A stretch of DNA of 62,707 bases, the filler included, from Collodictyon triciliatum (Eukaryota), in assembly GCA_043381765.1 (NCBI GenBank). It is 7 parts of 7 records of this genome, joined end to end, with 100 filler letters (N's around TTAATTAATTAA, not from the genome) between each part and the next. Parts side by side here need not be neighbours in the genome. Positions count along the whole stretch, not along the records: positions 47,440 to 57,878 come from JBHJMP010002673.1; 6 more parts are not named here. The stretch is one strand, 5' to 3'. A model generated the notes under the pieces. The model was not told the DNA's origin, ran no database searches, and worked only from the letters and a program-made list of their open reading frames with translations. Shown piece by piece: positions 16,821-62,707 of this stretch. The translations under genes and the position numbers were made by a program. Positions within the stretch are counted from its first letter, which is position 1; each line of letters begins with the position of its first letter.

Positions 16821-16997
16821 GAATTTGACTAATAATGCGACATAGTAATTGAAAAAAAGTAATGACTGATAGAAAAAATTTTGGTTTTTTAATTCTACAC
16901 GTTTAAATTGCATCCATCTTATTCCCATTCCTCCTTTTGAAAAATATTAAAAACATTACTTTCAATTACGCCTGACTCTCCGCAATTATCAATTAAC

Positions 16998-25894: not shown

Positions 25895-25898
25895 GGCC

Positions 25899-25909
25899 TT
25901 TCTTTTTTT
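25899..25909 (+). terminator. RNA polymerase III T-run terminator of tRNA-Phe
   Basis: TTTCTTTTTTT just downstream of the tRNA. Confidence 0.7.
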
Positions 25910-26348
25910 CAGTGGGCGCATCTGTAATGTTTTTTGGGCTTTGTGGGATTCGCTCATTGTAATTTTTTTTTTCCATATAGATTGTGTAATCGCAAGGAGT
26001 GGGCTCTGTTTACACCAACAGGAAATCATCCATCAGCTAAAACGAATATGAGAAAAAAAAACAAAAATAAAAAATAAAAAAAGAATCATAGGAAGATAAC
26101 ACATTTTTTGAGAACACACCAACACCCACCCGGCTGACCCACATATTTGAAAAGATGAGCAGCTACATACAAAATCCATTAAAAGCTGTGGCTCTGTTCG
26201 TGCAGTATAACGCGCTTTACTCATGAAACTCAGCATGAAGCTACATCTNNNNNNNNNNNNNNNNNNNNNNNNNNNNNNNNNNNNNNNNNNNNTTAATTAA
26301 TTAANNNNNNNNNNNNNNNNNNNNNNNNNNNNNNNNNNNNNNNNNNNN

Positions 26349-26451
26349 AAACAAACAAACAAACAAACAAACAAACAAACAAACAAACAAACAAACAAAC
26401 AAACAAACAAACAAACAAACAAACAAACAAACAAACAAACAAGCAAACAAA
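26349..26451. repeat. (AAAC)n microsatellite at contig start
   Basis: Tetranucleotide tandem repeat. Confidence 0.95.
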
Positions 26452-26639
26452 TAGGCAAATAGGCAATTCATTAAGGGACAAGCAGTTACACGCAACACTA
26501 ATACCGCCACAAGTTATAAGCTATAATAGGCGGATAAACAGATATACTCAAATCAACCAGAAAGCAGGCTTTGATCTCGATTGAAGATGCCTCCAAAGTT
26601 TGCCGGCAGCATCACAGCCCCAGGAAAGACTCAGGTTCT

Positions 26640-26699
26640 CTTTTTCTTTTTCTTTTTCTTTTTCTTTTTCTTTTTCTTTTTCTTTTTCTTTTTCTTTTC
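26640..26699. repeat. (TTTTTC)n microsatellite
   Basis: Hexanucleotide tandem repeat. Confidence 0.9.
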
Positions 26700-26847
26700 T
26701 ACTGACATCATAGAAATTACCCGAATATCTTGTTATCAACATTTTTATCAACCAACACTGTATTTTCATGCATACAAAGACACCAAAACGCTAGATCTCG
26801 CAGACATGAAACACAAGCAATTCACACACTTTTTTATTTGTTGATAA

Positions 26848-29800: not shown

Positions 29801-32800
29801 ATCTCCCATGATATAAAACCTTAAAATTCTCTCTATCGAAATAGTGATGAGGATGAATTTGCCCACATTGGAATTCTTGATATATTCGGATTTGAGTGCT
29901 TCCAAGTAAATCCATAATATAATCAGTTTTTACTACCCTTCTGATGTAATCCAACGAACAAGATTCATTTTAATAAAAAAAAAAATTACCAGAAAAACTC
30001 GTTCGAGCAACTCTGCATCAACTTTACAAACGAGACACTTCAACAATACTTTAATGATTGCATTTTCATTCAGGTCATTTTTCCGGTTTTTCTTTTTGTA
30101 AACTTGATTCAAAATTTCGGTTCACTTTATTTTATTAATTTATCAAATCCAATCCTTTGAATTTATTATATAGGAATTAGATTTATATGCTCGCGAAGGA
30201 ATCCGCGCGCCAGATATTGATTTCCAAAGCAATCAAGATACAATTGATCTTATCAATAAAGTAGGGAATATTTGAACAATTTTAACACCTACACTTAAAG
30301 CAAATCCATATAACAATTTCAATTACATAATCCTATCTGTTTATTTTAAAATGTGTACTTTCTTACTTATTTCATTACAGAAACCGACAGGCATATTCTC
30401 AATTTTGGATGAAGAAATGAGACTTCCAAAGGGAAAAGACTCCTCTTTTTCAGAGAGAGGTAACTCTCCTTTATGCAAAAGATTAACGAAATTTACAGTT
30501 ATTAATGAATATATATATATATATTGCATATGTTTTGAGGTTTCTAATAAACCAAACAGTTTACGCCAACAACTTGAAGCACTCTAAGCTGATTAAGCCT
30601 CCAATCAGCTTGAAGACTTCAGAAGCTTTTGTTGTCAACCATTATGCTGGAACTGTGTGGTTTTCGTTGTTTTTAATTTATCTTTAGAAACTCCCTGAAA
30701 TTGTCATGTATGATTAAATTTTTATTTTTCAGTTCTTATTATACAATTAATTTTCTGAGACGGTCGCTGAGTAATTGAATAATTTAATAGGTATGCTATA
30801 CTGTCGGCCAGTTCTTGTTAAAAAATAATGATATCAAACACCCTGACCATATTGTACTTGTAAAGGGATCGACGCTATCCACCCTTTGTGAAATCTACGC
30901 GAAAGAAAAAGTTGATATGGAATTGGGTGATTGTCGTTTAAAAAACTGATACTATTCGCTACGCAATTATTCATCTATTGATGTGTATGATAACGTTTCA
31001 TGAGACTAAAATAATTTCACATCAACCACACTTATTCGTAAAAAGCATCTCAAAACTTCAACAGTGTCAGCCTTGCCTTTTCGGTATTTTATAGGCCATT
31101 TTATCAATTATGTAATATGATGCCCTTCTTTTATAACAATCCTTCAAGAAATAAAAGCGTAAATTATGGGTTTCAGAAATCTTTGGATAAGCTTATGACC
31201 AGCTTGCGGGATACCGACTCTCATTTTATTCGCTGCATAAAGCCCAACAGCCGACAAAGACCGGTCTGATTATAGCTATCTATTTTAATTATTTACCGAT
31301 CTAAAACTTCGCAATTAAAGGGTAATTTTTCTGTCTTGGTTGATGAATGATAGGCTTTGTTCGAGGGAGATTTGGTGTTGAACCAATTACGATGCAATGG
31401 GATGATGGCTGCTCTACAACTAATGCATGCAGGTTACCCTACTCGATGTCCGTATAGCGACTTATATCTCAGGTTTACTCCCTATACTGCGTATTCTAAT
31501 TCCAACTATCGATGCAATTTATTTCAAGTATCTCATCGTCTGCTGGACTCCTTTCTCTCTTTCTCTCTTTCTCTCTTTCTCTCTTTCTCTCTTTCTCTCT
31601 TTCTCTCTTTCTCTCTTTCTCTCTTTCTCTCTTTCTCTCTTTCTCTCTTTCTCTCTTTCTCTCTTTCTCTCTTTCTCTCTTTCTCTCTTTCTCTCTTTCT
31701 CTCTTTCTCTCTTTCTCTCTTTCTCTCTTTCTCTCTTTCTCTCTTTCTACCACTTTTTTTATAAATAGAATGCCATTAATTTCTTCATGCATATATTTTT
31801 TTGAAAAAAAATATTATAGTATTGCTCCAACTTTATCTATGTCGTCGACAAGTTGTCTTCTTTGTGCTGATATGCACTGTCTATAGGTTCCTTCCTATGC
31901 TTCCTGTTGAGCTATCCAGTCTAGACCCAACAAACTTTTGTGAAGCGCTCTTAATTGCGCTTGAAGTAAAAAGGTCTGAATTTGCCTTGGGACTCACAAG
32001 ATTATTCTTCCGTTCTGGACAGGTGAAAACACTCAATTCCATATCTCATAGAAAGGTTGATACTTTTTAGGAGAAAACTCACAATATATGTTTAATATTA
32101 AATTGTAAAGTGTTTAAATATAGCATCCATATATTATCGAAAATGTACTCGAAAATTTACAAATAAAATACTCAATCTCGGAAATCTATGGTTCTTTTCT
32201 GTTCTTTTTTTTTTTCGTATCGTATCAAGCTGGCTTTCCTAGAAAATCTTCGGAGCAGTGGTCAGACTGAGCTTCCAAAAGACATAGTCACTCGTATTAA
32301 AGTATGGCTGGCGAGGAAAAGATTGCGCAAGGCTATATGGAGTGTCCTGGCATTCAAAATATGTATAAATTATTTTTGCTTCCAGTTGCAAATTCTTTTT
32401 TTTTTTAAAAAAAAATAGGGAAATAGAAAAAAAATGCGCTTAACCAAAGCCCATTTTTCTAATATTTTATTGGTGTTATTTTATAATATTAATAGTGGAG
32501 GCGAGATTGAACGCCCTGCGCGCCTTGAAATTCTTTGTTCATATGGTCCACACAACAAGGAAATACATCGTTCCTCTTGTCTTAAAATCTCGAAAGATTC
32601 GACGGGGTCGAGAGGCAGCGGAAAAGATTCAGGCTGTGTATCGTGGGTATAAAGTTTACAGGAAATACAAACCAATTTTAGATGAGAGGCGAGAAAAGAG
32701 GTCAAAGTTGAAAGAAGAGGAGAAAATCAAGGAAAGAGAGAGAATACGCCAACTGCAGGAGCTCGAAAGAAGGCGAAAAGATGATGAAGAACAACGAAAG

Positions 32801-32882
32801 ATTCAAGCCAAAAGAGATGAGGTATCCAATCATATTTTAATTTTCATGGATTGTCTTAGATTATAATTATAACAAATGAATG

Positions 32883-32913
<31 letters not shown>

Positions 32914-35900
32914 CATTTAGGCAGAGAGAATCGAGCGGGAAAAGAAACAACAGCAAGAAATGCTTGAGCAGGCTGTTAGAAGGAAACTCACTGCCGAATA
33001 TGACAACATATTGGAAGAGCGCCAAAGAGAAGTATAAACAAAATTTTGAGATAGTTAACAAAACTGTTCCCTATTCATCAACTGAATCATTCATAATCTG
33101 GCACTATCAAACAGTTCAAATTGAAAGAATCAATGGCACAAGATACCATCCATGAACTCACAACAACCGTACTCTTCATTGATGCCATATGCACCATAAT
33201 ATATCCGCATATTTTGTTTCTATTTTGTTTCTATTTTTACTCAAAATGCGCAGTGGTTAATCGCTATTGTATAATCAACATATCATCAGCTGGAACAACG
33301 GTCTAAAGACGTTGTCTCTTACACTGCAAAACTGGCTGAACTTCAGGAAAAGAATTCCTATTTATTGAAGGAAAGAGAATCTGCAACAAAGAGGGTAAGT
33401 CGAAAAGTGATTTTCACAAATCAATCGTTTATAAATTAAATGGTGTTATTATGATATGGTGCATCTCTCTAAAAGAAAAATAAATAATCTTGTATGAAAT
33501 TTGAGAATCACTTTTGCTGATATTAGATTGAGGAGAATCGTAAGAAAATGGAGTCAGTTGAGATAGCAAGCCGAGAGCAAGTGACCACCCACCGGGAAGC
33601 CATGCAACTGCTAAAATCTAGTCATGAGAACGAGGCATTATCCTAGATATTTAGTTTATACACAATCTAAAGTAATGACTCTCATATAGAAAGTTAAATA
33701 TTTTTCATTTAATTTGCGACAGATTTCTGCATTAAAAAAGAGAATGGCGGATTCATCCGTATGTATAATGTTTAATTTTGTATAACCTTTTGAAAGAGAG
33801 TGTGTACATTAATCGGTGTTACATTTATTTGTACAGAACAATTCAATTTATTTCATTTCAAACTTCTTTACTTACTCTCAGATTATTTGTTTAATCGCTC
33901 CTTAACATGCACTGGTTTAAAGGATAAGAATGAACAAGAAATAGACCGACTGCGGGCTGAGCTCGAGAAGGCAAAAGAACAGATTGTTTTTCTCCAAAGA
34001 AAGGTTACCTTCCAAGCTAATCCCTCAATTGTGAATTTCAACAAAATTTGACGCACATGGTTCTCATGACCTTTTGTTTATAATTCTATTAAAATTGGTA
34101 GGTATCTCAGCTCCAAGATGACCTGGCACAGAAAGACAACGCCTTAAAGACACAGAAACTACATCATGAAGAAGAGTCCGCTAAAGTCGGTGAACTGCTT
34201 CGTCGTCCTCTATTTATTTTTTCTTGAATAAAATACTGAGAAATGATGCGGATGCTTGATTTTTAATTTTGGTATAAATGAGATTTGCTTTCATGAAAAT
34301 AAATGAATCAAAATGCTTTAGTACGATGCATCCCTTTTGAATGTTAAAGCAGAATTGAAGATTTCCACTGAACAGGTAATCGGTGAAAAAAAAAATATAT
34401 ATATGTATGATCACATGTTAAAAAAATCACAACCATCCCCTTATTTCGCTAATTATGTTTGTCCATTAGGTATCCCTCCTTCAAAAATCGCTTGCCGAAA
34501 AGAGTAAACAAGCGACAGAAAAAGGTTTGCACGTAGTACTGCTTACATCCTCGAAAATTTTCCAGTTTGCCATATTATTAGCCATATACAAACACTGTGT
34601 TCAATTGTCTTAGAGACACGGCTAGAGGCTGCTCTAAAGTCTGAGCATGAAGATGCATCCAGATTAAATCAGCTTATCAAAACAAAAGACGAAAAGGTAT
34701 TCCATAAATAAATCAACAAGTAAAGAACTTGAATATGAATTAGCAAGTAAAATCAATCATGTGAGTTACAGGAGAAGAAAACATATCACACGTTTATTCT
34801 GGTAGATAAAGCAAGTTTCTTTGTTGATGAATGAAAAAGAGGATGTTTCAAAAAGGAAGGAGGACAGCCTCAAGCGAGAAATAGATGAGGTAACCATACT
34901 TAAAGGGACGATATCTTGCCTGGAAGTATACAGATGATTCACTGTTCTGGTATTCAATACAATATTTCTTTGATAACATCATAGCTGCAACAAAAACTGA
35001 ATCGTCAAGGAGAAGACCACTTTATGGATATTACTGAGTTGCAATCGAAACTTCAAGAACAAAAGAGTGTGAATTTACATCTTCAAGAAGAATTGGAGCT
35101 TGTTAAATCAGTCAAGCCACTAAGGTTTTGTTTTTATCTTAAATTTGGAAATTATTTCAATATAATGTAGAGTATATAAAAACGAAAGCAATTGTAATAC
35201 TTGATAACTAAAGTTCTTCATATTATTCAATGTGTACGTTCCTCATCAAACTCACGAAAACTCTTCGTATTAGGAGAACTGAAGCGATTCGTTCTGCCCA
35301 ACCAAGGTTTGTTTCTACTGCAGAAGACCAAATGGAAAACAAGAGACAGTCAAAGGTAAGTCTCTTTCTCTGTCTCCACTAACATCACATTTATATTTAA
35401 CCATATCGTCTTAATCATCTCTTGTCAAGGGGCTTGCATCAAACATCGAGTATCATTATTTTTCCTATATTCATTATTTTTTTTTTACCTTATTATTCGG
35501 CCAAGAAAATACAAGAGCTGGAAGCGAAAGTTGCTAATCTGGAGAGGAGCTTGAACGACATGAAAGAGGACAAAGAATTAGTCGAAAAACATGTAACTCT
35601 CGCCATCTAAGGAAAGCAACATAATGATTCATACTTACAAACATATTGTGCGGATGTCTTTGTTCAACTTAAAGGAATTCATTTTGTTTCCAGCTTACTG
35701 GAATCGAAAGAAACTGGAAAGAAGCAGCGGAGGGACGAAGCCAGATTCAAAGCGACCTTGTGTTGATGGAAAAAAGCGTAAGTCTCTTGCTTTCTTTTTT
35801 TAAGAAAAAAAAACGAGCGAATAAGTTTATTTCATGATGTTACTTTGTAGAACACAATTTTATCAGGACGTATATTCCTAATGCAGCTCTAGAATTGCTG

Positions 35901-36128
35901 TCTTTCAATCGATTCGAATCATGTTGATGGAATCCATATAACTTGTTAAAAACCCTAACGACAGAAAGCCGAGGTCCTTGACTCTGTGACTGATGAAAAC
36001 TTCAAGCTGCAACAGCTGGTTGAAGACCTTCAATCTCTGAAAAACGAAGGTGAGGATGATTGGTTTTGTTTCCTATGGCTTTTTAGAATCTCTCATCGAC
36101 CTTTTTTCCTTTTTTTTTCCTTTTTTTT

Positions 36129-36207
<79 letters not shown>

Positions 36208-49970: not shown

Positions 49971-52900
49971 TTAATCAGATGCTTTCTGTCTCCACTCTGC
50001 TGCCTTTTCGGTGTCCTTCTCAGTACCCCATCCATTTTCATAGCATTCAGCCATCATTTGAGCCTGAAACTTTGTGTAATCTCCCTGCTCACAATATTGT
50101 GTAAAGTCCCCATCAAAAGATGCCGCACCTTCTTGAAGAAATAGTTTCTTGTTTATGGGACTCAGTCCGGTGGTGTTTTTGAAACGTATTTTGGCACCTT
50201 CAAACTTTCTTGGGCCGATAATTCGGACTGTACTTACATTTACAATCCTACTAATACCAACCATGTTCATCGCATCACTTATTTTATCAAATATTGCAAT
50301 AATTTTGCCTGGGGTATCTCTTTTAAAAAGTTGATTCTTGTCGTTGTAGGTCATATCTGATATATCAAAGTTAATTTTTTCGTTTCCGGTAGACATGTCC
50401 CAAATATGGATTGTACCGTGGTTAGTTACCGAGGCCAGCCAATTTTCGCTATTCGGTCCCCTGATTGCGCAAGTGTACGTGACAAAACCTGGATGATTTT
50501 CCAAAAGATAGATTTGATTTCCTGAGACTGCATCCCAAATACGTATTGTTTTATCGCTACCTCCGGAAGCCAAGCAATTTTCGCCATTGGGTCCTTGAAT
50601 ACTGCAAACGGCCAGGACTGTATCTGTATGTCCTTTAAATAGAATAATTTGGTTTCCTGTGGTTACATCCCAAAGCCGTAAGGTTTCATCCCAACTTCCC
50701 GAGGCTAACCACTTTTCACCACTCGGTCCTTGAATACCACAAACACCGACAACGACGTCTCTATGACCTTCTAGTATTTTGATTTGTTTTCCTGTGGCTA
50801 TGTCCCAAATAGATATAGTTCTATCGCTACTTCCTGATGCTAACCAACTTTCTCCATTTGGCCCTTGAATACTACAAATACTCAAAACACTACCAGTATG
50901 ACCTTCTAATACTTCGACGTGGTTTCCTGTGGCTACATCCCAAATGCATATTCTCGTATCAGAACCACCAGTTGCCAACCACTTTTCACCATTCGGTCCT
51001 TCGATATTACAAATACTGATGATAGTATCTGAGTGATATTCCAGTATTTTGATCTGACTTCCGCTGGCTACATCCCAAATACGTAAGGTTTTGTCCTGGC
51101 TTCCCGAAGCCAACCAGTTCTCACCGTTCGGTCCTTTAGTGCTACAAACAGTCGTAACATAATGCAAATGGCCTTCAAATTTCTTCATTTGGGCTCCGGC
51201 TGCTAGATCCCATATACGAATAGTCCAATCATCACTCCCAGAAGCCAGCCAGTTTTCACCATTTGGTCCTTGAATGCTGCAAACACTCATAATATAGCCT
51301 GTATGACCTTCGAATGTTTTGGTTTGGTTTCCAGTGGCTACATCCCAAATACATAGTCTAGTATCATCGCTTCCAGAGACCAGCCAATTCTCGCCATTCG
51401 GTCCTTGAATGCTGCAAAGACTCGCAACACCCCCAGTGTGTCCCTCGAGCACTTTGATGTCATTTCCTAAGGCCACATCCCAAATTAGAATGGTTTCATC
51501 AACACTTCCAGAGGCCAGCCAATTTTCACCATTCGGTCCTTGAATGCTGCAAACACTCATGACAACGTCCGTATGTCTCTCTAAAATTTTGATTTCCTTT
51601 GTTGTGGTTACATCCCAAATGCGCACTGTTTTATCATTACTTCCAGAGGCCAGCCAGTGTTCACCATTCGGTCCTCGAATACTGCAAACACTCATGACGC
51701 CGCCTGTGTGTCCCTCTAAAATTTTGATTTCCTTTGTTGTGGTTACATCCCAAATGCGCACGGTTTTGTCTTCACTTCCAGAAGCCAGCCAGTTTTCACC
51801 ATTTGGCCCTTGAATGCTGCAAACGCTAGTAACATATTCCATATGACCTTCAAATATTATGATTTGGCTTCCAGTAGTGATATCCCAGAGGCGAATTGTT
51901 TTATCACTACTTCCAGAAACCAGACACCTTTCTCCGTTCTGTCCTTGAATAATACAGACACTATTAACAGACCTTGCGTGTCCGTCTAATGTTTTGATTT
52001 GATTTCCAGTCACAACATCCCATACATAAATTTTTTCATCTTCACCTCCAGATGCCAGCCAGTTTTCACCATTTGGTCCTTGAAGACTGCAAACACTTCT
52101 GACATAACTTGAATGACCCAAGAAAACAGGCAGGCGACCAAAATTAACGTCATTCATATTCGCATTATCAAAGACGCAATTAGATATGCATGCATTGTAG
52201 AGAGTAATGCCAGTCAAGTTTGCGCCAGAGAAATCAACCCCATCAGCAATAGACTGCGACATATCAGCATTTGGAATTTGAATCCCTCTGAAATCCATTC
52301 CACTGAAAGAAACATCAGCATAATTCAGTATTGTTATGGCATTTGATGCGGCTTGCGATTTGCTTGCATCTGTTTTGGATTGTTCGATTATCGAAAAAAG
52401 GTTGTCTTTGTAGGCTTTGTCTTTATTCACCTTTTCACTCAGATTGAGGATAATTGCTGGCTCAAGTTTTTTATCAAGAACATTTGTCATCACTCTCGAT
52501 TTTATAATTGAGTGAGCAATTTGAGGGAGCTTGTGGCCAATTGATTTCACTAATATAGATTTTCCAGAAATAGAGTTCTCAGGTTCAGAGGAAATTGTAG
52601 ATATTTGAGTTTCAGTCGATGGTTGGGCATAATCTTGATTATCGACCGCGGAATCGTTGATTTCATCTTTGATATACTCAGCAGCAAAGAATTCGTAGAG
52701 TGACTTGTGGAAGAACTCGTACGTTGTGGCACTAGATTTCTTAATGGGGGCACATCTCAAGAAAAAGATAGAATATGTAAGCTCTCCGTCTATCGAGTGC
52801 TCAGGATTTGGATGAAAAAATTCGTCATACTCATGCTTTTTTGATTTTCCTTCGACTTTTTCATATTCCAAAGCAAGATGACCTTTTTTGAGCATAATTT

Positions 52901-55900
52901 TGGCGATGTCTTTGCACTTAATCCAAAGCAATTCAGATAAATCCTCTGGCATTCTTTTCTTCAACGAAACAGTACTTTGAAGTTTTTCTCTTTCACGCTC
53001 GAACCATCTCCTCGAAAATTTGTCTAGAAAGTCTATTCTCATCATTTTAGCATCATCCTTCGACTTGAATTCAGCTCTTTCCTTCAACAAAGATGGGAGT
53101 GTGGTGGCTGCCATGAAAATCATAAATGGGGTGGCGGCGAGTTCGTCAAGCTCTTTGATTTTCTTGAGCTCTTCTTCATATTTCTCCCCCTTTTCCCATC
53201 CTTTAATGGGATTGCGTTCTGCATACTTGTTAAAGAATTCAATTCTTTGTTTGGCCTCGAAAGGCCTTAGGTATATTTCATCCAGGGAGTAGCCATGGCT
53301 AATTTTTGGTGCGATCAAAGAGTGATATTGAGGTTTCTTGTCAAAAAATTGTTTTCGGCATCCAATCACGAACTTGCAGTTAGGCCATTCATGCAATTTA
53401 TTCGAATTGTAAAAAGATGTACCATTTTCTTCAATTTCATCATAACCATCAAGGAAGATTATAAAAAATTTCTTTTTTAACTCCTTTATCTGTTCTGCCC
53501 GGAAATCAGAATCGGAAATGTAGAGGCTGTTTTTGCTTTCAGAAAGAAGCAATTCCTCAATGGCATTTTCTCTGGGCTTTTCCAATGCAGTTAGAGCTAC
53601 ATATAAAGGAATATGTACCTTCCCATACTCATATCTCTCCCATAACAGCCGCACGATATACTGTTGTAGTAGAGACTTTCCAGAACCTGAATCCCCGAGA
53701 ATGAGGAGCACTTTTTCTTTTGAAGATATGATGAAATTCAGAATATATTCTTGGGCATCAAATTTTTTTCCTTTTTCAGCAATTCTTTCGGCTTGACCAG
53801 GGATGTAAGTACTAAATCTGCTATTAAACTCTTCATTTCGAACAGTCTCTTCTTTGATGTTTTCGATGATGTCTTGAACAGTCCTTTCGTCCATTCCAGC
53901 TTTTTCAAAAAGGACCGTGTGTAATTTGAGAATTTTCGGAGAATAAGCCAGCATATCATTTTTTCTTGTTTCCACAAATATGTTAATAGCCTCATTTTTA
54001 AACCATTTTTCATGCTGTGTGAAGTAATCCACCAAGTTATAAACCTTCTGACGCTCGGAGCCATTAGTAGTGTAGCAGAAGCGTTCATAAATCGTATCGA
54101 TAATAAGGAATGCTAGAGTCTCTCCGACTTTATCTTTCTTGACAGAAAATTGAGAATCCCAAAATTTCTTTGCTTCGTCAACACTAACAAACAAAAAGAT
54201 ACGAAATTCTTGATAAAATGTGAACCAGTTTTTCTTTATATCGATTTCCCCAACAGCAGTGGCAACCTCTTGTAATGACGCCAAAGTACCACTAATATCG
54301 AAAGAAAATGCTGCAGAAGCAGCGTTGAACAGACCAAGTCCAACTTTGCCAGCTATTTTTAGATTCTTTATAACTGGATTCTGGCCGTCACCGATATTTT
54401 TTAGAAGTTCACAGAATAAGGATTTCTTGGCCTGGACATACTGAATTTGCATCTTATTCAAAATTTCTTCACCGCGAGTCTCTATTTTTTTTTCAATCCA
54501 GCTTTGTCCAAATGTCTCCTTGTATGACTTGTACTTTTCTTCTGGAATTCCCGATGCGCCAGAAACATAGAGCGAGTTCAGGATGGAAATCAGACTGTCC
54601 AATACCTTTTGACACAAGTTTTCGTCCGACGCAAATAGGCTCCCAACACGCTCAATCAGAATATCAAGGACTTTTGCCAACAAAGTTTGGTCAAAATCAT
54701 CCTTAAGAGTATTTGCCACAACGATATTCAAGGCGTTTAGCAAGCGGTCCAACTTTTCCATCCCACTCTGCATCTTATCACCAACAGCAGTTATAAGCTT
54801 TTCTGAAATGAGTTTGTCCCCTGAAGGGGCCAGTGCAGTAATCTCCCCCAAGCTCTCATCATCGGCAGTTGGTTCCTTCATGAAAAGCTTGATTATCCGA
54901 AGAGCTCTCTTTTTCTCGGTACTCTTGTCATATTGTTGGTCTCGTTGCTCAGATATGGCTTTGGCAAGCTCGCAAGTATTGGCAGGTGTCTCAACAAACT
55001 CGTAAGCTTTAAATTCCCAATCTCTAAACAAATTTTGTTGTGTGCTGCTTGAGTCTGGCATATGGCCATATGAACTTGTTCCAGGTTGATTACATGCAGA
55101 TGGAAATGTCATTTCTGTTGGTTGGGACGAGGCCAAAGCGGGAATGTCGAAGTCCCGTTGGATATTTGAAGCACTTTGTGTATTAGCAGCGGAGAGCTGA
55201 GATATGATCTCCTGGGGTGACGTTGTGGTTGCATTTCCTTGAGATTGAATGCCCACAGGAGAAGCAGGAGAAGCACTAGATTGAGCAAAGTTGGACATGG
55301 ATGCTTGAGGAGATACAAAACGCACCAGTGAATCAATGACTTGAAAGGTCTGCTCAGAGGTTGGCAGTCGAGATACTTGATCGATGATGGTCTGAATAAG
55401 TCTTTGCTTCGATTCGTTCTGCTCGCGTAGGCTCTGGGTTTGGACAGCAGCCTGCTTTTCTATCATAGAGATATGAAGTGCTACCAATCTTTCCAACAGT
55501 TTCATATCCTCCTCCTTGGTACGACTCATGAGTAACTGAGATGCTAAGACTTGAGTCAATTGTATGGATACATTTTGACCATTCGGACTAGATATCGAAT
55601 TACTTGCTGATTGTTGATACGCCTCGTTTAATTTGGACAGAACTTCAAGGACATCAAGAGTCGAATCAGCTTGGGTATTGCGCGTGCGTGCTGTGGCAGA
55701 TACATTCCTTTGAGCCATTCGAGATGATGCACTGCCACCTCCTTTGAAATTAAAGTTTACTTCATAAATCCCGTCGCCTCGAAATGCGCAGCTTAGGGAT
55801 TCACCTGGATGAACCTTATGTTTTAAAGCTCTGGGGTCGATATTCGGGGGAAGAATTATTTCTGGATATAGTCCATTTCCAGGGTGATCCAGAGACGATG

Positions 55901-56490
55901 GCATATATGTGGCTTGACCATAATATTCATATTCATCTGTAAAAGAATAAATAAAATGAAATACTATGCTGATACTTGACGTTGTGATGACATTAAAGCA
56001 AAAAATAAATAAATCGAAACTATGCATTTTTCTTTGGGCATTACCTCCTTTCTGTGAACCAGAATTCAATCCCTCAAGGACATCCTCTTGGTCGCATGGT
56101 TCTTCCAAGACTTTCCAATTCCTGTTTAGAGTGTATGATTTTTTTTTGATTCAGAGACCCGATTAATCTACAAATTACATATGTTATGAGGCAAAATCTC
56201 TTTCTTTAGTCAAATTATTACCAGCCTTGAATTGCACCAGAACACACTTCGACGAGTTGGTCGACCATTCCCAATATATCTGGGTGATCATGGACTCCAA
56301 TACCTGGGACAATTTTTCCGGCTGGTTGGAAGTTCAGTTGAGGAAGTGTGCTGACAGGAGCGGCCTATATCGAATTTTGTCAAACTATTTGTGGTGATCA
56401 CCAGAGTTGAAAAAATACAGAGGAAAAACTCTTACTTTCAATGCTTACCTCATCAATCCTCATCAAACTCTTTCGAAGATTAAATTTCAT
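49971..56490 (-). CDS. NLR-like STAND protein: helical/ARM-like - NACHT - pentapeptide repeats - 13 WD40 repeats - SEL1-like; about 2075 aa
   Basis: Exon model 56490-56449, 56364-56222, 56121-56045, 55936-49971 keeps frame with GT-AG introns. Walker A LILGDSGSGKS (about 53690), Walker B FIIFLDGYDEI (about 53450), pentapeptide repeats (about 52140-52310), 45-aa WD40 units (about 50370-52125), C-terminal AECYENGWGTEKDTEKAAEWRQKA. Confidence 0.92.
50370..52125 (-). repeat. 13 x 135-bp coding tandem repeats (WD40)
   Basis: Units GH-x-V-x-SVCSIQGPNGENWLASGSxDxT-x-IWD; a 48-nt block is identical at 51579-51626 and 51714-51761 (offset 135). Confidence 0.92.
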
Positions 56491-57978
56491 CACGGTACAA
56501 AACGCAATTAATATCGATGTAGGAGCGAGTCACTAATACAAAAAAAAAACATTATACTAATATAATTATGTAAATTTATCATAAAACATGTTTTTTTTTA
56601 AACGGATACTGTTGTGTTGGTTAAGTTTTATATTTTCGACTTAAACCATAAACTCTTCCTTGTATAATGAGCCATCGTTCTATGGATGATTTTTTTATTC
56701 ATGTTACAATAGTCGATTAAGTGATGTATTAATTGAGAAATATCCAAACTGGATCACTGCCCTGTCCTTTTGTCTAAGTGCGCGAAATTGCTATATTTTG
56801 GACAAGCAAATCATAGCCAATTATAAAAATTTGCATGTAATAGATTTTTTTTTATTTATTTATCTCTTTACCTTTGCTTAAATACACAAATGAATCTCAC
56901 AATACATTTCTTTTCTTCTTTGGTATGTGGCTTTTAATAGAACGCTTGGAAAAATTGGGAATTAAAAAAAAGTATATATTGAATAAAGTAAATTAAAATA
57001 TGCAGCGCATCACATGATCTCTTTTACTTTCTCTCACATAATCTCAAATCGAAAGAAACAACAAATAAAAAAAATAAAAATAGAAAATAAGTCAAATTGT
57101 TCAGAGGAGTGGTCAAGAAGTTGCCGATCGTAAGTGTAATAGTTTATCTACTCCCAAGTATTTTCATAGCACTGATTAACCCATACATAAGTTGAGTTGC
57201 ATTTGCGATGTTTCGTGTGGGCAAGATATATAATTAAATACAAATAATTAAAATATCAAAGGATTTTTTTTTTTTTTAAAAAAAAAATAAATAATTAAAT
57301 TAATAGCGCCAAGAACGAAGAAAAAGCGAAGAACCTACGAAAAACAAAAGCTCATAAAGAACGAAAATATCAAAAACGTAGTAATGAAGGAAAATGAACA
57401 AAAACAAAAATAAAAAATAAAAAAGAAGAGCTCTAAGGCAAATAACTATAGGGGAAAACAAGCATTGACATAATTACCACACCAAGATCACTGGCCGGGC
57501 TGGGATCACATGACACGCCGCCAGGCAGCGCCAATCCACCTTCGATCAGATAATGCTGCCTGGATGGGATGGTTGACACGTCCACATATATTCTATTCTA
57601 TAGATGGAATTATATTTTCATACAAGTTTTATTTCCAGCTTCGGAAGGCGGATGATCGCTCTTCTTCGCCCGCCTTTTTCCCCTCATCCGCGTCACAGAT
57701 CAATAATCTGGTGCCCTAGTATTTTTCCCCCTGTGCGCAAGGATTCTAAAGAGCCCGGCACTTCGAGGCGAACACAACAAAAATAAAAAAACAAATAAAA
57801 AAACAAATAAAAAAACAAATAAAAAAACAAATAAAAAACAAATAAAAAAACAAAAAAAAAAAAAAAAAAAAAACAAAANNNNNNNNNNNNNNNNNNNNNN
57901 NNNNNNNNNNNNNNNNNNNNNNTTAATTAATTAANNNNNNNNNNNNNNNNNNNNNNNNNNNNNNNNNNNNNNNNNNNN

Positions 57979-58073
57979 TATGTATGTATGTATGTATGTA
58001 TGTATGTATGTATGTATGTATGTATGTATGTATGTATGTATGTATGTATGTATGTATGTATGTATGTATGTAT
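57979..58073. repeat. (TATG)n microsatellite at contig start
   Basis: Tetranucleotide tandem repeat. Confidence 0.95.
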
Positions 58074-59031
58074 TTTGGATTAGATAAACCATCCAACAGT
58101 GATTGGTGAATATCATCCGAAAAATTTTCAAGAAAAGCAAAAGAAATTAATGCTGTCATGCTTTGCGTTTCTCTTGGTTTTTTTATATATAAAAATTCGG
58201 ATATCATCTCGCTGTGTGCTGGCGGACAACTGATTCCATCGCCGAACCACGAAAGACACGAGGAGAGCCTTCTCTACTTTTTTTTTAATTAGTCAGTATC
58301 GCAAATACCACGCTTCACTGCCAGAATAACGCATACTGCATCAGATGACCCGGCAGGTCTTCTTGATGTTACCTTCATTCCTTCTCTTTCTCTTGCATTC
58401 TGTTCTCTAGTACCCACATGATTGTTTTATAACTCAAGCTAATCACACTGCATTCTTCTCATCTTTACTACAACTCGTGCGTATCAGTGGGATGCTTCTG
58501 GACAGCAGTCTTATATCAGGAAAATATAGTGTCAAACCCCCGAAATAAAAAAAAACAGAAATCAAGATGAAAAAGAGGTAAAGTAGAGGGAAAAGGAGAA
58601 GCGGTAGTGAATCAATTTTTCTGTTGGGGTGACAAAGTTAGCAGATGCTGGAGTATATGAGGTTTATGCATTAGCCGGCCAACTTTATTATAATCTAAGT
58701 ACCGACGTTGAACATTCCAGATATCCCTCTTAAAAAAAAAAAAGGAACAAGTAACCAACAAGTTTTCAATCCCGGCAAATTTAACTATCAATTCGAGATA
58801 ATTAGAAAATAGAATAATGGGAATAACAACATTCACGAAAGAAAGTGTTCCAAGTTGACGTGTCCTTTTCTAAACAGTATTTGCATCCGGTAGGAGTTTC
58901 CTTGCACGCACGTTCAATCCTGAGTGTTTTTTCTTCCTTTTCCAAAAGACAAACTGAGGGGATCAATAAAACATTCGTTCATAGCTGTTTGTGATTTATG
59001 TTAAATTGGTGGTGGTAGTTAGAGACGGGGA

Positions 59032-62000
59032 TTATGAAGGGTTCGAAGTAGCGTAAGGATTGATTGAATCCCTTGGTGAACTTGTATGGGACCCGACACC
59101 GCTGGCAGACGAAGGGTTCTGGCTGGGTCGCTGATGTCTGTTGAGGAGATACTCTAGACTCTCATGTTTTCTGTCTCCAGGCTTTTTCTAAGGGTAAAGC
59201 AAAATATATTGCCATCAGATTTTATAGTCATATCATTGCAGAAAACGCCATTTTGCTCACGCATACCCATCGTTGGCTGTGATAGTCGCGAATGACTAGT
59301 GTAATTACATCACGGACGCGCGGGTTCTCTGCTGTGAATTCATATATACCAGAGGCATCATGAATGTTGAATTTCGTATTGTTGGCTATGTCCAGAGAGA
59401 CCTTGAGAGATGCACCCACTGGGATTCTGTTCAACGTGTGTTTGTTAAAGTGATGGTATATGCTCAAAGCGACTCCCTGCATTAAAGATATCACGATGAT
59501 GATGGATAACAAAATTAAGACTATGGTGCAAACAGTTTTGAAAAAAGACCTTAGTCTAGTGACCATTGATTTTTGAATCTTGATATATTCTTTCGATAAC
59601 AAAATAATTCTTGACTCGTATTTGTCTTTCGTTGACGACCTCATTTGTATCTAATAGGTAAGTTTCGAATGAAAGTAATGTCAGTTGTTAGAGCTAATGC
59701 TTGAGATGATTTCTCTGTTGCACTTATAATTTTGATGTTAGTCGCAGACATTACAAGGCTTTGGCATTAAAATCGTCTTAATTTAAGAGAAGTACTCTGA
59801 ATGATGGGTTTTCTGATAGGACATTTGTCTGGGCTATATGCAGTATATCGGGATCTGTGTGGGAAAACCATACACATAAATTTTGTTTCTATAGCTGGCG
59901 TTGCACTGAATAAATAGTGATAGATCATACAGATATATAATTGTAGATAGCCACACTTTTTTTTTTTTTTTTGCCCAGAGCAACAACTACTGCACAGAAA
60001 CTCGAATACATTTTGTTTTAAATACCCGGTCTGTATAAATCTCTGCTAACATTTACATAAAATATGCTTCCTGATAGACCATCAGTTCGTATCGGAGTGA
60101 TTTCAACCCGAAGAGCACATCCAAAATCATCGGGATTAGGCTCATATTTTAATCCTTTTGCCCCTGTTTCAGAACATGGTGGTATCCATCAATTAAAGCC
60201 CAAGAAAAACAAAAATAAAAACAAAAACAAGTATAGAAATGCAAATACTATATGCTATTTTGTCATTAGCTCTGGACAATCGAGCAGGTAAACTGATTCA
60301 TACCAGCTATCGCCATGAACGCCCGGTTATCTGAGGAACGAGCCCAATGAATCAGTGACCCCCATTCTTTCCCTCCAGCATAGACATACTCGACGGAGAG
60401 CGGTGTTGTATGATAAGGACCACCCTTAACAAGGGCAGAAACGACACGAGGTATTCCTAAGCGATTATAATTCGTCGTGGGTAAATTGATTGAAGCTGTA
60501 TACTATGTGAATTAGTATACATTCAAAAACTTAAAGAAAAAAAATAGGGATAGTAGGGGCACGAGAGCCATAGTTCTCACCTTCTCTAATCGGTGTTGTG
60601 TCGACGTTGTAAACTTGATCTCCGCATTTTATCACACAACGTAAAGAGTGACCGATATCATCATAGCAAGTTTTGTAATGGTCTTCCGTCGCTCCGAGAA
60701 TTAGAGAGAAGGACTCCAGACCTTTCCTCTTTAGCCTGGCAATCGGTGCAGTGTCGAAATATATTTCAGATAACAGGTATGGGTTTTTTTGGTAAAAAGA
60801 AAAAAAATTACTAAATGGATTATCGAAAGAAAAAAAAAGGTGGCGGGGGTTGAGTTTAAAAGTTGAAAATTACCATTGATATGAAATATTTTCAGAAACT
60901 TGGATTATGCTTCCACCTCCGACTTTGAGGAGAGATGAGTCCTCGAGTACTCCATCAATTCGGAACTCGTTGGGTATTGGCTCCAGATTGATTGATACTA
61001 ATATAGAGGTAAGATAATGGTATGTATCAAATTACTCAAAAAAATTATTCTTCTGGCGAGTCATAAAACTTTTCAAAAATGAGGTAAAGTGAGTAGTTTT
61101 TCACATACTTTGTTCTTCCAGGGTGGGGAATGTAATTGGGGGGATGCTGATGGGGGGTTGGTCTGGATTGATGGTGGCTATATGTAATACCGAATCAAAA
61201 AAAAAGCATTATTCGTCATTCTAAAAGGGTAAATAATAACACAATTGAGATAAACCATATTATAAAAGAATCACAAACTGCATTAAACGTAAATGGAAAA
61301 TACCATGGCCCTGTGATTTTTTCTCAGACAACGATTCCTTATGTGTGAATGCGCGAATCAAATTTACAAACGAGTGGAGGCCAAGATTAGTATGCACTGT
61401 GGATAAAATAAAAATAAAATTCATGATTCTGAGAGGGAAAGCCTCCAAAATAAATATGACATACTGTTTCTAATGAGATTGGTAGCTTCATTTTCGGAGC
61501 ATTATCGTTAGATTCATCTGAATCTGGTTTTGATTGATTTGCCGGTTTTTTCAGGGACGACGTCGGAGGAAGTTGATTCAAAACGTGGGTAACGATTTTC
61601 CATATGTTATTAATTCCTTGGATACCGATACTACAGAGTCAATTTGAAAATGAAAATACCTTTGTCAAGAAATTTATACAGGAAAATTACTAATATTTGA
61701 ATGGATATATGATCTAGCATATAGTTTGTCACATCTATTTACTTCACTAGAGATACCTTAGCTGACGCATAATGATCGATATCATGCTTTCTTTCAGTAC
61801 TAATCTCTGCTGTGTGAGTAATAATTGGTCTTCCAACCATTGGTCATAGTCCATCTGATGAGCGAAGAGCAAATTTTTTTTTTATTATATGATGTTGATA
61901 CTAGATACAGAATGAAAAGAAAAGAGAAGAAAAAAAAAAGGAAAGGGAAATAGCTAAGAAAACAATTACCCTGGATACATTTGATTCAACACGACCAATA

Positions 62001-62243
62001 GTACTTTTTTCAGCAAGTTTGTCGACTTTTGTATGTATAGATTGGAATATATTCGATATTTCCCCGTCAGGGTCGTGCTGACTTCCATTCGAATGTGTAT
62101 GCCTGTTGATCTCTGTAGATTTGTCGTAGCTATTCACGAAATGCAAACTGCTAGAATTGGAAGACGATATCCTGAGGGCTTCAAATTGCTCTGAACGAGT
62201 AAATGATTAATGTATTGAGAGTGGGCAAGAACCAATACAAATA

Positions 62244-62318
<75 letters not shown>

Positions 62319-62548
62319 AAAGGCAAACGAACTAAAACAAAAAATGACAAAATAATTAGCACAAGAGTTACCCTGTTGCCGCTGTGATGACTGTACCAAC
62401 ATAGCGTCCTGATTTAACAAGTATTCAAACTCCTGATGCTCCAGCGCGATGGCATCGTGAGTACTTCTTACGCATTCAACAACCATATCGATTGCTGCGT
62501 CTATAATTCTCAAATCCTCTGTGGAATCACGGAATTTACTCTCCAAAC
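59032..62548 (-). CDS. Multi-exon protein with two AIR9-type Ig-like repeats and a C-terminal PH-like domain (5' partial)
   Basis: Exons give FRIDGVLED...SYQW, LILGATEDHYKTCYDDIGHSLRCVI, YVYAGGKEWGSLIHWARS, GAKGLKYEPNPDDFGCALRVEITPIRTDG (A9-like). Then IILLSKEYIKI...KFNIHDASGIYEFTAENPRVRDVITLVIRDY (PH-like). Final exon ends NPS-TAA at 59034-59032. Confidence 0.7.
62244..62317. repeat. poly(A) tract (intron of minus-strand gene)
   Basis: Long homopolymer. Confidence 0.9.
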
Positions 62549-62648
62549 TAGAAGTATTAAAAGAATTAATTCTTTAATGATATGGAAAATACTGACTATT
62601 TTTTATTTTATTCTTTTAAGATTGGAAGGAAAACGTGCGACATCGTTT

Positions 62649-62692
<44 letters not shown>

Positions 62693-62707
62693 AATTAATT
62701 TTTTTTT

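What the first reader, a model, noticed from the sequence alone, without database searches (positions are those of the whole stretch)
49971..55936. NLR-like NACHT-pentapeptide-WD40-SEL1 gene with a single 5966-nt exon in an intron-saturated genome
Seen: neighbouring large genes have introns every 100-200 nt, but this gene has only three introns, all near the 5' end, followed by about 6 kb uninterrupted. The architecture (helical N-terminus with EITALAP...GKVGLGLFNAASAAFSFDI...KKNW, NACHT, pentapeptide, WD40) recalls, from my memory of the family, the expanded NACHT-WD40 proteins of Mortierella fungi, their bacterial endosymbionts and ciliates. A terminal SEL1-like repeat is an unusual addition. 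Inference: a protist innate-immune or allorecognition receptor acquired by horizontal transfer or retroposition and given a new intron-containing N-terminus.
Basis: partly seen in the sequence, partly recalled or inferred. Interest (0 to 1): 0.72.

Follow-up and report, generated by a model that had tools for sequence, protein, structure and literature searches.

The report
Single-exon NLR-like gene in a protist
This is a real, transcribed gene for a very large immune-receptor-like switch protein, encoded almost entirely in one 6-kb exon in an otherwise intron-dense microbial eukaryote; it belongs to a family already described in Mortierella fungi and bacteria, so it is a new member and not a new kind.

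Summary
The minus strand carries a stop-free frame of 2059 codons; the next longest in the window is 285. The model gives 2075 aa.

The window is a chain of separate ~10.4-kb contigs joined by N linkers. Only the LIM gene is a physical neighbour.

The domain order is confirmed: unique ~400-aa extension, divergent ARM_5-like helical domain, NACHT with intact Walker A and B, pentapeptide repeats, 13 WD40 units of exactly 45 aa, a conserved cap and one Sel1-like repeat.

The closest are two Diphylleia rotans transcripts (30-35% identity), which share the 45-aa WD40 unit and the Sel1 tail. They group with the window at 97-99 support, apart from the fungal/endosymbiont clade.

I found no sign of recent transfer or retroposition: GC3 is 0.37, there is no poly(A) remnant on the coding strand, and the gene does not nest among bacterial sequences. 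An ancient prokaryote-linked origin of the family stays plausible.

Most likely function: a ligand-gated, oligomerising STAND sensor. New member of a known kind; moderate interest.

The parts
57478..57770 (-). 5'UTR exon; its 3' end is defined, its 5' end is not
   Evidence: Joint 56532->57478 in X1, with GT..AG on the minus strand. X1 depth is 3.0 in bin 57449-57770.
56533..57477 (-). Intron 1 (945 nt, in the 5'UTR), GTAAT...AG
56449..56532 (-). Exon 2 (84 nt). ATG at 56490-56488, preceded by an in-frame TGA at 56532-56530
56365..56448 (-). Intron 2 (84 nt, GTAAG...AG), predicted only
   Evidence: Read from the sequence. Not among the joints listed, where 9 joints were not shown. If it is retained, the frame stops at codon 31.
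56222..56364 (-). Exon 3 (143 nt)
56122..56221 (-). Intron 3 (100 nt), GTAAT...AG
56045..56121 (-). Exon 4 (77 nt)
55937..56044 (-). Intron 4 (108 nt, a multiple of 3 with no stop, so the raw ORF reads through it)
49965..55936 (-). Exon 5 (5972 nt), holding 1987 full codons and the stop TAA at 49973-49971
54957..55936 (-). Lineage-specific N-terminal extension (ORF aa 58-384): Q/S-rich and helical, with no Pfam family
   Evidence: Pfam: 0 families at E<=1. No relative among the fetched proteins.
53784..54956 (-). Divergent ARM_5-like all-helical N-domain (aa 385-775). It includes the low-confidence hydrophobic stretch at 54294-54350.
53223..53711 (-). NACHT NTPase core (aa 800-962). Walker A GDSGSGKS at aa 805, Walker B FIIFLDGYDE at aa 882.
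52134..52322 (-). Pentapeptide-repeat segment (aa 1263-1325), preceded by the family motif AASNAITIL (52326-52352)
50370..52124 (-). 13 tandem WD40 units of exactly 45 aa (aa 1329-1913)
50118..50204 (-). Conserved post-WD40 cap motif (..GLSPINKKLFLQEGA..)
   Evidence: Matches the family consensus GLSxxNxxLLxQRGA.
49974..50063 (-). Single terminal Sel1-like repeat
   Evidence: Pfam 26.5 bits, below the cut-off of 30.7. Homologous repeats in Diphylleia P0052 score 62.9 bits.
49734..49964 (-). Intron 5 (231 nt) in the 3'UTR. It holds a T69 run on the coding strand (49866-49934).
49606..49733 (-). 3'UTR exon; its 3' end is not defined
   Evidence: Joint 49733->49965 and X1 depth 8.4 in bin 49606-49946.
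47582..49032 (+). Convergent multi-exon LIM-domain gene, cut by the contig start. It is the only true physical neighbour.
   Evidence: At least 5 LIM-coding pieces separated by stop-containing spacers. An X2 contig covers one exon at about 47603-47746. Its donor is GTAAT.
47340..47439 (.). Artificial linker N44-TTAATTAATTAA-N44 (contig boundary)
57879..57978 (.). Artificial linker N44-TTAATTAATTAA-N44 (contig boundary)

Best explanation
The locus is an expressed nuclear gene of an AT-rich, intron-dense microbial eukaryote. It encodes a protein of about 2075 aa in the NACHT-pentapeptide-WD40 branch of STAND NTPases (NLR-like proteins).

Shown: the domain order, intact ATP-binding motifs, an animal-NLR-like NACHT fold, the splicing pattern, and a closest kinship to two Diphylleia rotans transcripts.

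Inferred mechanism:
- The 13-blade WD40 array, probably two beta-propellers, holds the protein closed until it binds a ligand. Its variable residues cluster after the GH dipeptide and around the conserved Asp; from recalled WD40 structure these are top-face positions, which no call checked.
- The pentapeptide beta-helix acts as a rigid spacer.
- Ligand binding allows nucleotide exchange and NACHT oligomerisation.
- Oligomerisation clusters the N-terminal ARM_5-like helical solenoid. That domain has no enzyme-like fold, so it most likely recruits a separate downstream partner.
- The role is probably non-self or danger sensing, as in other NLR-type proteins.

Gene history: the gene is a long-resident member of an old lineage shared with Diphylleia. 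The conserved core was never intronised, or lost its introns long ago. The host-specific 5' extension carries the only coding introns.
For: Gene and transcript:
- The frame is 2059 codons against a next longest of 285.
- Four GT..AG joints lie on the gene's strand in X1, and 100%-identical contigs cover 52319-55845.
- The spliced CDS is 2075 aa, with an in-frame stop upstream of the ATG.

Domains and fold:
- Pfam finds NACHT, Pentapeptide and WD40 above their cut-offs.
- Walker A and Walker B are present.
- The model of aa 385-1330 has pLDDT 74. The best PDB matches are NOD2, NLRC4 and NLRP3 (E 6.5e-9 and weaker; 79 chains at E<=0.001).

N-domain:
- The model has pLDDT 77 and pTM 0.72 and is all helical.
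- Its fold matches are ARM/HEAT solenoids only: Foldseek best E 9e-3, VIA Z 11.4.
- A profile of the window and Diphylleia N-domains hits proteins it was not built from: Chlamydiae-MAG proteins at 40-43 bits and Mortierellaceae proteins at 19-23 bits.
- The Mycoavidus homologue's N-domain is PF23948 ARM_5 at 238 bits.

Kinship:
- The best of 2943 hits are Diphylleia rotans P0052 and P0053 (297 and 277 bits).
- P0001 aligns with P0052 over 1280 residues, from the N-domain into the WD40 array, at E 3e-154.
- The window groups with Diphylleia at 99 (FastTree, 191 rows) and 97 (IQ-TREE quick, 44 rows).
- They share the 45-aa WD40 unit. Three or more 45-aa spacings occur in 2 of 229 proteins; three or more 42-aa spacings occur in 93 of 229.
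- They share the cap and Sel1 tail (35% identity, E 3e-19).

Composition: GC3 is 0.369, even along the gene; flank GC is 0.34.
Against: - No function has been tested for any member of this clade.
- The N-domain gives no hit to Pfam ARM_5 itself at E<=1, and only 17-18 bits to a profile of homologues.
- Its fold matches lie below the level at which helical repeats become informative.
- Run X1 is labelled RNA only as a guess. Whether the joined forms also exist as DNA could not be checked (table 5b not given).
- WD40 units are only 67% identical at the nucleotide level. The rapid repeat shuffling typical of fungal NWD/HET-E receptors is therefore not evident.
- Deep branches of the tree are weak and unrooted, so the history is not resolved.
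- The organism is unidentified and no whole genome is held.
Confidence: 0.72

Rival explanations
1. Recent horizontal transfer from a bacterium, for example an endosymbiont, put an intron-free NLR gene into this genome. The host then added a short spliced 5' end.
For: - The family occurs in bacteria that live inside eukaryotes: Mycoavidus and Glomeribacter and a Chlamydiae MAG (L001 at 7e-60; L015 includes the N-domain).
- Ciach et al. 2024 (PMC11291939, passages read) argue for bacterium-to-Mortierellomycota transfer of this architecture.
- The core is intron-free in an intron-dense genome.
- The 5' extension has no relatives among the fetched proteins.
Against: - The best bacterial match is only 26-30% identical.
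- The closest relatives are eukaryotic transcripts.
- The gene does not nest inside any bacterial clade.
- GC3 of 0.37 is uniform and close to the host background.
- About 330 aa of the unique extension lie in the same exon as the core.
Confidence: 0.1
2. The long exon results from reverse-transcriptase-mediated intron loss or retroposition of a processed mRNA in this lineage, leaving introns only at the 5' end.
For: - Coding introns sit only in the first ~75 codons. This is the 5'-biased pattern that cDNA-mediated intron loss is expected to leave (established model, recalled).
- LINE-like reverse-transcriptase remnants occur in the same assembly (12908-13213, minus strand).
Against: - There is no poly(A) remnant on the coding strand after the stop. 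The run there is T69, and it lies inside a spliced 3'UTR intron.
- A 3'UTR intron is retained.
- In 20 of 24 unnamed metagenome loci examined, of the 33 found, the homologous NACHT-to-WD40 part lies in one ORF of 1200 aa or more and one more has 1110 aa. Long ORFs may therefore be a family trait, though the hosts of those loci are unknown.
- Target-site duplications were not looked for.
Confidence: 0.15
3. The contig is chimeric or a contaminant: a fungal or bacterial NLR gene mis-joined to protist DNA.
For: - The window is a patchwork of short contigs.
- No read or contig was seen bridging the LIM gene and the NLR gene.
Against: - The gene has its own spliceosomal introns. All four RNA-supported ones start GTAAT, as does the LIM intron.
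- Those four introns have GC 0.25-0.28, below the 0.34 of the contig flanks.
- Identity to every fungal or bacterial homologue is 39% or less.
- Contigs with 0-1 differences to this gene occur in four runs from three studies.
Confidence: 0.03
4. It is not a non-self sensor but a constitutive scaffold or regulatory STAND protein, comparable to TEP1/NWD1-type NACHT-WD40 proteins.
For: - The N-domain is a plain helical-repeat scaffold with no enzymatic or death-fold match.
- WD40 repeats are only moderately similar to each other.
- Pfam's TEP1 beta-propeller models also match the WD40 array.
Against: - The family has a patchy distribution.
- Many paralogues occur in single metagenomes and in Hexamita.
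- Repeat variation is concentrated at a few positions.
- These are traits of conflict genes, by inference.
Confidence: 0.15

Closest known systems
Diphylleia rotans transcripts P0052 and P0053 (EukProt EP00002; uncharacterised)
   Same: They share the whole layout: the same N-domain, NACHT, pentapeptide repeats, WD40 with the unusual 45-aa unit (GPxGExWLASG insert), the cap motif and a Sel1 tail. BLASTP to P0052 gives E 3e-154, and clade support is 97-99.
   Different: Identity is only 30-35%. P0052 lacks the ~400-aa N-terminal extension, has fewer WD40 units and has at least 3 Sel1 stretches where the window has one. Only transcripts are held, so their gene structure is unknown.
NACHT-PPR-WD40 NOD-like receptors of Mortierellomycota and Mycoavidus/Glomeribacter endosymbionts (Ciach et al. 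2024, PMC11291939, passages read; Uehling et al. 2017, cited there and not read)
   Same: Domain order, the AAxNAITIL motif, the post-WD40 cap and an ARM_5-type N-domain are shared. The alignment to Linnemannia P0023 gives E 4e-123 and starts in the N-domain.
   Different: Identity is 25-30%. The window lies in a different clade. Those proteins use 42-aa WD40 units, and no Sel1 tail was seen in the three homologues read (P0022, P0023, P0049; not scanned with Pfam). The window's N-domain is too diverged for Pfam ARM_5.
Bacterial NACHT (bNACHT) anti-phage proteins (Kibby et al., bioRxiv 10.1101/2022.07.19.500537, passages read)
   Same: Both have a NACHT switch with repeat sensors, and pentapeptide repeats and beta-propellers are listed among the sensors. 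The paper proposes repeated prokaryote-to-eukaryote transfers of NACHT modules.
   Different: This is a eukaryotic spliced gene, and no anti-phage context applies. Which bNACHT clade it falls in could not be checked: 'clade 11' does not occur in the main text and supplements are closed.
Animal NLRs (NOD2, NLRC4, NLRP3)
   Same: The NACHT-module fold matches (Foldseek E 6.5e-9 to about 1e-5).
   Different: Sequence identity is 10-14%. Animal NLRs have LRR sensors and CARD/PYD effectors. Here the sensor is a pentapeptide segment plus WD40 and the N-domain is a helical solenoid.
Fungal HET-E/NWD NACHT-WD40 allorecognition proteins (recalled, not searched here)
   Same: Both are NACHT plus WD40 with variation focused at a few repeat positions.
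   Different: Those repeats are recalled to be nearly identical at the nucleotide level. Here mean nucleotide identity is 0.67 and the maximum is 0.81. The N-domains also differ.

Membership tests
NACHT NTPase (PF05729) | Profile match above the curated cut-off | tested here: met
   36.4 bits against a cut-off of 26.7
NACHT NTPase (PF05729) | Walker A GxxGxGK[ST] and Walker B hhhhDGxDE | tested here: met
   GDSGSGKS at aa 805 and FIIFLDGYDE at aa 882
NACHT NTPase (PF05729) | NACHT-module fold as in solved NLRs | tested here: met
   The top Foldseek PDB matches are NOD2, NLRC4 and NLRP3, at E 6.5e-9 and weaker. The model's pLDDT is 74.
NACHT-PPR-WD40 NLR-like family (Mortierellomycota, endosymbionts, other bacteria) | Domain order NACHT, then pentapeptide, then WD40 | tested here: met
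NACHT-PPR-WD40 NLR-like family (Mortierellomycota, endosymbionts, other bacteria) | Family motifs AAxNAITIL before the pentapeptide repeats and GLSxxNxxLLxQRGA after the WD40 array | tested here: met
   The window has AASNAITIL and GLSPINKKLFLQEGA. The columns A, N, A, I, T, I, L are invariant in the 40-row alignment.
NACHT-PPR-WD40 NLR-like family (Mortierellomycota, endosymbionts, other bacteria) | Placement inside the Mortierellaceae/endosymbiont clade | tested here: not met
   The window lies with Diphylleia (97-99), outside the 116-row fungal/endosymbiont clade.
ARM_5 (PF23948) N-terminal domain | Match to the Pfam profile | tested here: not met
   0 Pfam families at E<=1 for aa 1-780
ARM_5 (PF23948) N-terminal domain | Homology by custom profiles and collinear alignment | tested here: met
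   The profile of the window and Diphylleia N-domains hits ARM_5-bearing Chlamydiae-MAG proteins at 40-43 bits and Mortierellaceae proteins at 19-23 bits. The reverse profile gives 17-18 bits.
Sel1 repeat (PF08238) | Profile match above the curated cut-off | tested here: inconclusive
   The window scores 26.5 bits, below 30.7. It aligns to Diphylleia repeats that score 62.9 bits.
Fungal NWD/HET-E type with near-identical WD40 repeats | Very high nucleotide identity between repeat units (recalled criterion) | tested here: not met
   Mean 0.67, maximum 0.81
Processed retrogene | Poly(A) remnant 3' of the coding strand and no introns at all | tested here: not met
   The run after the stop is T69, not A, and it lies inside a spliced 3'UTR intron. 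At least 4 introns are present.
Recent prokaryote-to-eukaryote xenologue | Nesting within a bacterial clade and foreign composition | tested here: not met
   no nesting; GC3 0.369. Most tree rows are unnamed metagenome proteins, so an older transfer is not excluded.
bNACHT clade of Kibby et al. | Clade assignment from their Table S1 and tree | not testable with these tools
   Supplements are closed, and 'clade 11' is absent from the main text.

The most novel reading that the evidence does not exclude
Free-living protists from at least three eukaryotic supergroups carry their own clades of NACHT-pentapeptide-WD40 receptors: Diphylleia and this organism, Reticulomyxa, and Hexamita. These clades are intermixed with bacterial ones. 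Here the gene would be one of many paralogues with near-identical WD40 units. That would amount to an undescribed, expanded NLR-type innate immune repertoire of unicellular eukaryotes. It would have been seeded by ancient exchange with intracellular bacteria and kept intron-free to allow repeat shuffling.
Probability: 0.3. Interest if true: 0.65.

Novelty: new member of a known kind. Interest (0 to 1): 0.4.

Why it matters
NLR-type receptors are well studied in animals, plants, fungi and now bacteria, but hardly at all in unicellular protists. This locus and its relatives in Diphylleia, Reticulomyxa and Hexamita show that the NACHT-pentapeptide-WD40 design reaches well beyond Mortierella and its endosymbionts. 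My full-text searches found no paper describing that wider reach. The gene structure also makes a clean case for asking how intron-dense genomes treat such genes: a 6-kb intron-free core behind a short, spliced, lineage-specific 5' end. The questions are whether the core is ancient foreign DNA that was never intronised, and why. The protein itself follows a known design, so the value lies in evolutionary and comparative work and not in a new mechanism.

Tried and rejected
- Whole-genome search of the window's assembly: none is held, so paralogues could not be counted.
- Earlier notes on this genome: none.
- Taxon of the organism: the cyclin-like ORF 11282-12136 gave no hit at E<=1e-5. Rfam found only one tRNA. 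Pfam on ten long ORFs gave only cyclin and LRR.
- 'Shorter' protein search for fragments of the same protein: 5 hits, all 39% identity or less.
- Viral contigs: 595 pattern matches, 0 relatives.
- Metagenome contigs: 33 loci, none closer than Diphylleia. Identity was 22-30%; two loci reached 44-46% in their best-scoring segment, one of them matching only the pentapeptide part.
- No listed holder is on record as RNA; X1 and X2 are RNA by guess only.
- No cover in X1 over 48924-49605, so the LIM-NLR join was not bridged.
- Depth in the WD40 bins reached 728-833, against 3.5-14 in the unique bins of X1. Many contigs were 90-99% alike. This hints at paralogues but is not a copy number.
- My homologue N-terminus profile (hom.hmm) 'hits' Reticulomyxa P0049 and Cetraspora P0051 only because they were in its training set, so I disregarded those hits. 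Pfam sees only a sub-threshold RelA_SpoT match in P0049.
- Fold search of the N-domain: generic ARM/HEAT solenoids, with no enzyme, death-fold or pore-former match. The absence of such matches is not evidence that none exists.
- Literature: 0 papers with Reticulomyxa plus NACHT. The only Diphylleia plus NACHT paper concerns plant-derived compounds. None of the 15 papers listed contains 'Hexamita inflata'; nothing relevant.
Full report
**1. What is in the sequence**

The minus strand holds an ORF at 49971..56108 (2045 aa from a TTG). Stop to stop it is 2059 codons. Only 7 stop-to-stop frames of 150 aa or more exist in the window, and the second longest is 285 aa. In DNA of about 34% GC a frame this long cannot arise by chance.

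The window is not one piece of DNA. Twelve runs of 44 N stand in six pairs around TTAATTAATTAA. They split the window into segments 1-10447, 10548-15701, 15802-26248, 26349-36812, 36913-47339, 47440-57878 and 57979-62707. The gene sits on the 10,439-bp segment 47440-57878.

The kelch-repeat, myosin and cyclase genes that look like intron-dense neighbours lie on other segments. They belong to the same assembly but are not physically linked. The only true neighbour is a convergent LIM-domain gene at about 47582-49032 on the + strand. It is made of at least five short coding pieces separated by stop-containing spacers.

**2. Gene model and expression**

One sequencing-run search found two small runs of one study that hold 57% and 33% of the locus's sampled words. 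It also found two metagenome runs, freshwater and subsurface, that hold small shares.

Laying their contigs on 47560-57770 gave four joints with GT..AG on the gene's strand in X1:
- 55936->56045, 108 nt
- 56120/1->56221/2, 100 nt
- 56532->57478, 945 nt
- 49733->49965, 231 nt

Contigs with no differences cover 52319-55845 and show no canonical joint there. The joints inside 50.5-52.0 kb have non-canonical ends and extra letters. I read them as assembly noise in the WD40 repeats.

They add a 5'UTR intron and a 3'UTR intron that begins 6 nt after the stop codon. The 84-nt intron 56448-56365 is predicted only.

With it removed, the CDS starts at the ATG at 56490, which follows an in-frame TGA, and gives 2075 aa. 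With it retained, the frame stops at codon 31. All four supported introns begin GTAAT and have GC 0.25-0.28. The LIM intron donor is also GTAAT.

X1 is 'RNA' only by the tool's guess. The spliced joints are what show that it holds transcripts. Whether the joined forms also exist as DNA was not reported.

**3. Domains**

| Part | Residues (ORF numbering) | Evidence |
|---|---|---|
| N-terminal extension | 58-384 | No Pfam family at E<=1 in aa 1-780 |
| ARM_5-like helical domain | 385-775 | Custom profiles and model |
| NACHT | 800-962 | 36.4 bits, cut-off 26.7 |
| Pentapeptide | 1263-1325 | 30.7 bits, cut-off 20.2 |
| WD40 | 1329-1913 | 307.7 bits, 12 stretches |
| Cap motif | 1969-1997 | Family consensus |
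| Sel1-like | 2016-2045 | 26.5 bits, below cut-off 30.7 |

Walker A (GDSGSGKS, aa 805) and Walker B (FIIFLDGYDE, aa 882) are intact. An AlphaFold model of aa 385-1330, built on a 40-row alignment, has pLDDT 74. Its best PDB matches are NOD2, NLRC4 and NLRP3.

The WD40 array is 13 units of exactly 45 aa with no indels. Mean identity between units is 57% at the amino-acid level and 67% at the nucleotide level. Variation is concentrated in unit columns 5-7, 9, 28 and 30, just after the GH dipeptide and around the conserved Asp, and in a few later columns. From general knowledge of WD40 structure these are top-face positions. No call checked this.

**4. The N-terminal domain**

In the Mycoavidus protein this region is Pfam ARM_5 at 238 bits.

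The window's copy is too diverged for the Pfam model. Two custom profiles link it to ARM_5:
- A profile of 43 homologues' N-termini scores it 18.4 bits over a collinear 240 residues.
- A profile built only from the window and Diphylleia hits proteins it was not built from. Chlamydiae-MAG proteins score 40-43 bits and Mortierellaceae proteins 19-23 bits.

A separate model (pLDDT 77, pTM 0.72) is all helical. The hydrophobic glycine-rich stretch is its least confident part. Fold searches return only generic ARM/HEAT solenoids, such as IntS4 and importin-beta at Z about 11. That is below the level at which helical repeats are informative. I therefore read this domain as a protein-binding scaffold and not as an enzyme. 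This is an inference.

The first ~400 residues, exons 2-4 plus aa 58-384 of the big exon, have no relative among the proteins fetched.

**5. Relatives and phylogeny**

The word-indexed search gave 50 hits at 25-30% identity. They are Mortierellaceae, Mycoavidus and Glomeribacter, plus one Reticulomyxa and one Cetraspora protein.

The exhaustive HMMER search gave 2943 hits, 404 of them at E<=1e-30. The two best are Diphylleia rotans transcripts.

P0052 aligns over 1280 residues, from the N-domain into the WD40 array, at E 3e-154. The cap and Sel1 tail align separately at E 3e-19. It carries Sel1 repeats above the Pfam cut-off (62.9 bits). It also shares the 45-aa WD40 unit, which is otherwise absent. 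Three or more 45-aa spacings occur in 2 of 229 fetched proteins. Three or more 42-aa spacings occur in 93 of 229.

Prokaryote genomes gave 15 loci: a Chlamydiae MAG, two Gammaproteobacteria MAGs, a Nitrospirae MAG and Mycoavidus MAGs, at 25-31% identity; one of the Gammaproteobacteria loci matches only an 85-residue stretch, at 40%.

For the tree I kept rows covering the NACHT-to-pentapeptide region. That was 179 of 199 proteins and 12 of 15 locus ORFs, 191 rows in all. FastTree puts the window with Diphylleia at 99. That pair lies inside a 22-row clade (97) that also holds Reticulomyxa, three Hexamita inflata proteins, the Nitrospirae MAG and unnamed metagenome proteins. This clade is separate from a 116-row Mortierellaceae/endosymbiont clade and a 38-row Gammaproteobacteria/Chlamydiae clade.

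A quick IQ-TREE run used 44 rows: the 22-row clade, 13 named picks and every fourth unnamed row of the 38-row clade. P0056 and P0060 had failed the coverage filter. It keeps window plus Diphylleia at 97 but leaves the deeper nodes weak. The tree is unrooted and most rows are unnamed, so no donor can be named.

**6. Origin of the intron-free core**

Against a recent transfer:
- The closest relatives are eukaryotic and already 65-70% diverged.
- GC3 is 0.369 and even along the gene, against 0.34 for the flanks.
- There is no nesting among bacterial sequences.

Against a recent retrogene:
- There is no poly(A) trace on the coding strand.
- A 3'UTR intron is present.

For an old, prokaryote-linked origin of the family:
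- The distribution is patchy across bacteria that live in eukaryotes and across distant eukaryotes.
- Published arguments exist for Mortierellomycota (PMC11291939, passages) and for NACHT modules in general (Kibby et al. preprint, passages).
- In 20 of 24 metagenome loci examined, of the 33 found, the NACHT-to-WD40 part lies in one ORF of 1200 aa or more, and one more has 1110 aa. The hosts of those loci are unknown.

The data do not tell an ancestrally intron-free core from ancient cDNA-mediated intron loss. Genomic loci of the Diphylleia homologues would decide.

**7. Verdict**

This is an NLR-like receptor gene with a lineage-specific, intron-bearing 5' end, but neither horizontal transfer nor retroposition is shown, and nothing points to a recent event.

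It is a new member, in protists, of the known NACHT-pentapeptide-WD40 family. Together with Diphylleia it forms a distinct sub-clade marked by 45-aa WD40 units and a Sel1 tail.

This scan has noted bacterial NACHT-pentapeptide-WD40 genes on other DNA before. Those notes led me to the Kibby preprint.

Noticed in passing
window 10448-10547, 15702-15801, 26249-26348, 36813-36912, 47340-47439, 57879-57978: Six artificial linkers (N44-TTAATTAATTAA-N44) show that the window is a chain of separate contigs. Five are about 10.4 kb long, one is 5.2 kb and the last is cut by the window's end. Gene neighbourhood across them means nothing.
   Followed up: yes
window 49866-49934: An A69 run on the + strand (T69 on the NLR gene's strand) lies between the two convergent genes, inside the spliced 3'UTR intron of the NLR gene. 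It may be the tail of an old retroposed element.
   Followed up: partly
window 56767-57107: Inside the 945-nt 5'UTR intron, the two metagenome runs show very high summed depth (490 and 128) with many loose ends at 56845-57088. This could be a widespread short repeat or AT-rich cross-mapping.
   Followed up: no
window 15038-15421 and 24679-25190; also 12908-13213 (minus strand): Near-identical peptide stretches (for example ..TATATMTWKEISV..) occur in ORFs on two different contigs, in GC-richer DNA. A LINE-like reverse-transcriptase C-terminal tail lies at 12908-13213. These are probably copies of a mobile element.
   Followed up: no
window 1990-9057; 27065-32863; 22710-23808; 25822-25894: Other contigs carry a many-exon kelch-repeat gene, a myosin heavy-chain gene with IQ motifs, an adenylate/guanylate-cyclase-like gene and one tRNA gene. 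No stop-free piece in any of them exceeds about 140 aa.
   Followed up: partly
L001 and L015 (Chlamydiae MAG contigs): A Chlamydiae MAG encodes proteins with an ARM_5-like N-domain and NACHT-pentapeptide region (full-length, 1638 aa, in L001; the L015 ORF is cut by the contig end); WD40 was not checked there. Among named prokaryotes their N-domains are the closest to the window's (40-43 bits). This is another intracellular-bacterium lineage carrying the family.
   Followed up: partly
P0049 (Reticulomyxa filosa), residues 374-461: The Reticulomyxa homologue has a different N-terminus, with a weak RelA/SpoT-like match (15.7 bits, below the cut-off of 27). This suggests effector swapping within the protist clade.
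   Followed up: no
window 47440-47550 and 57781-57877; 57980-58075: The gene's contig begins and ends in simple repeats: (GAAAAGAT)n and an A-rich 12-mer. The next contig starts with (TACA)n. The assembly evidently broke at microsatellites.
   Followed up: no
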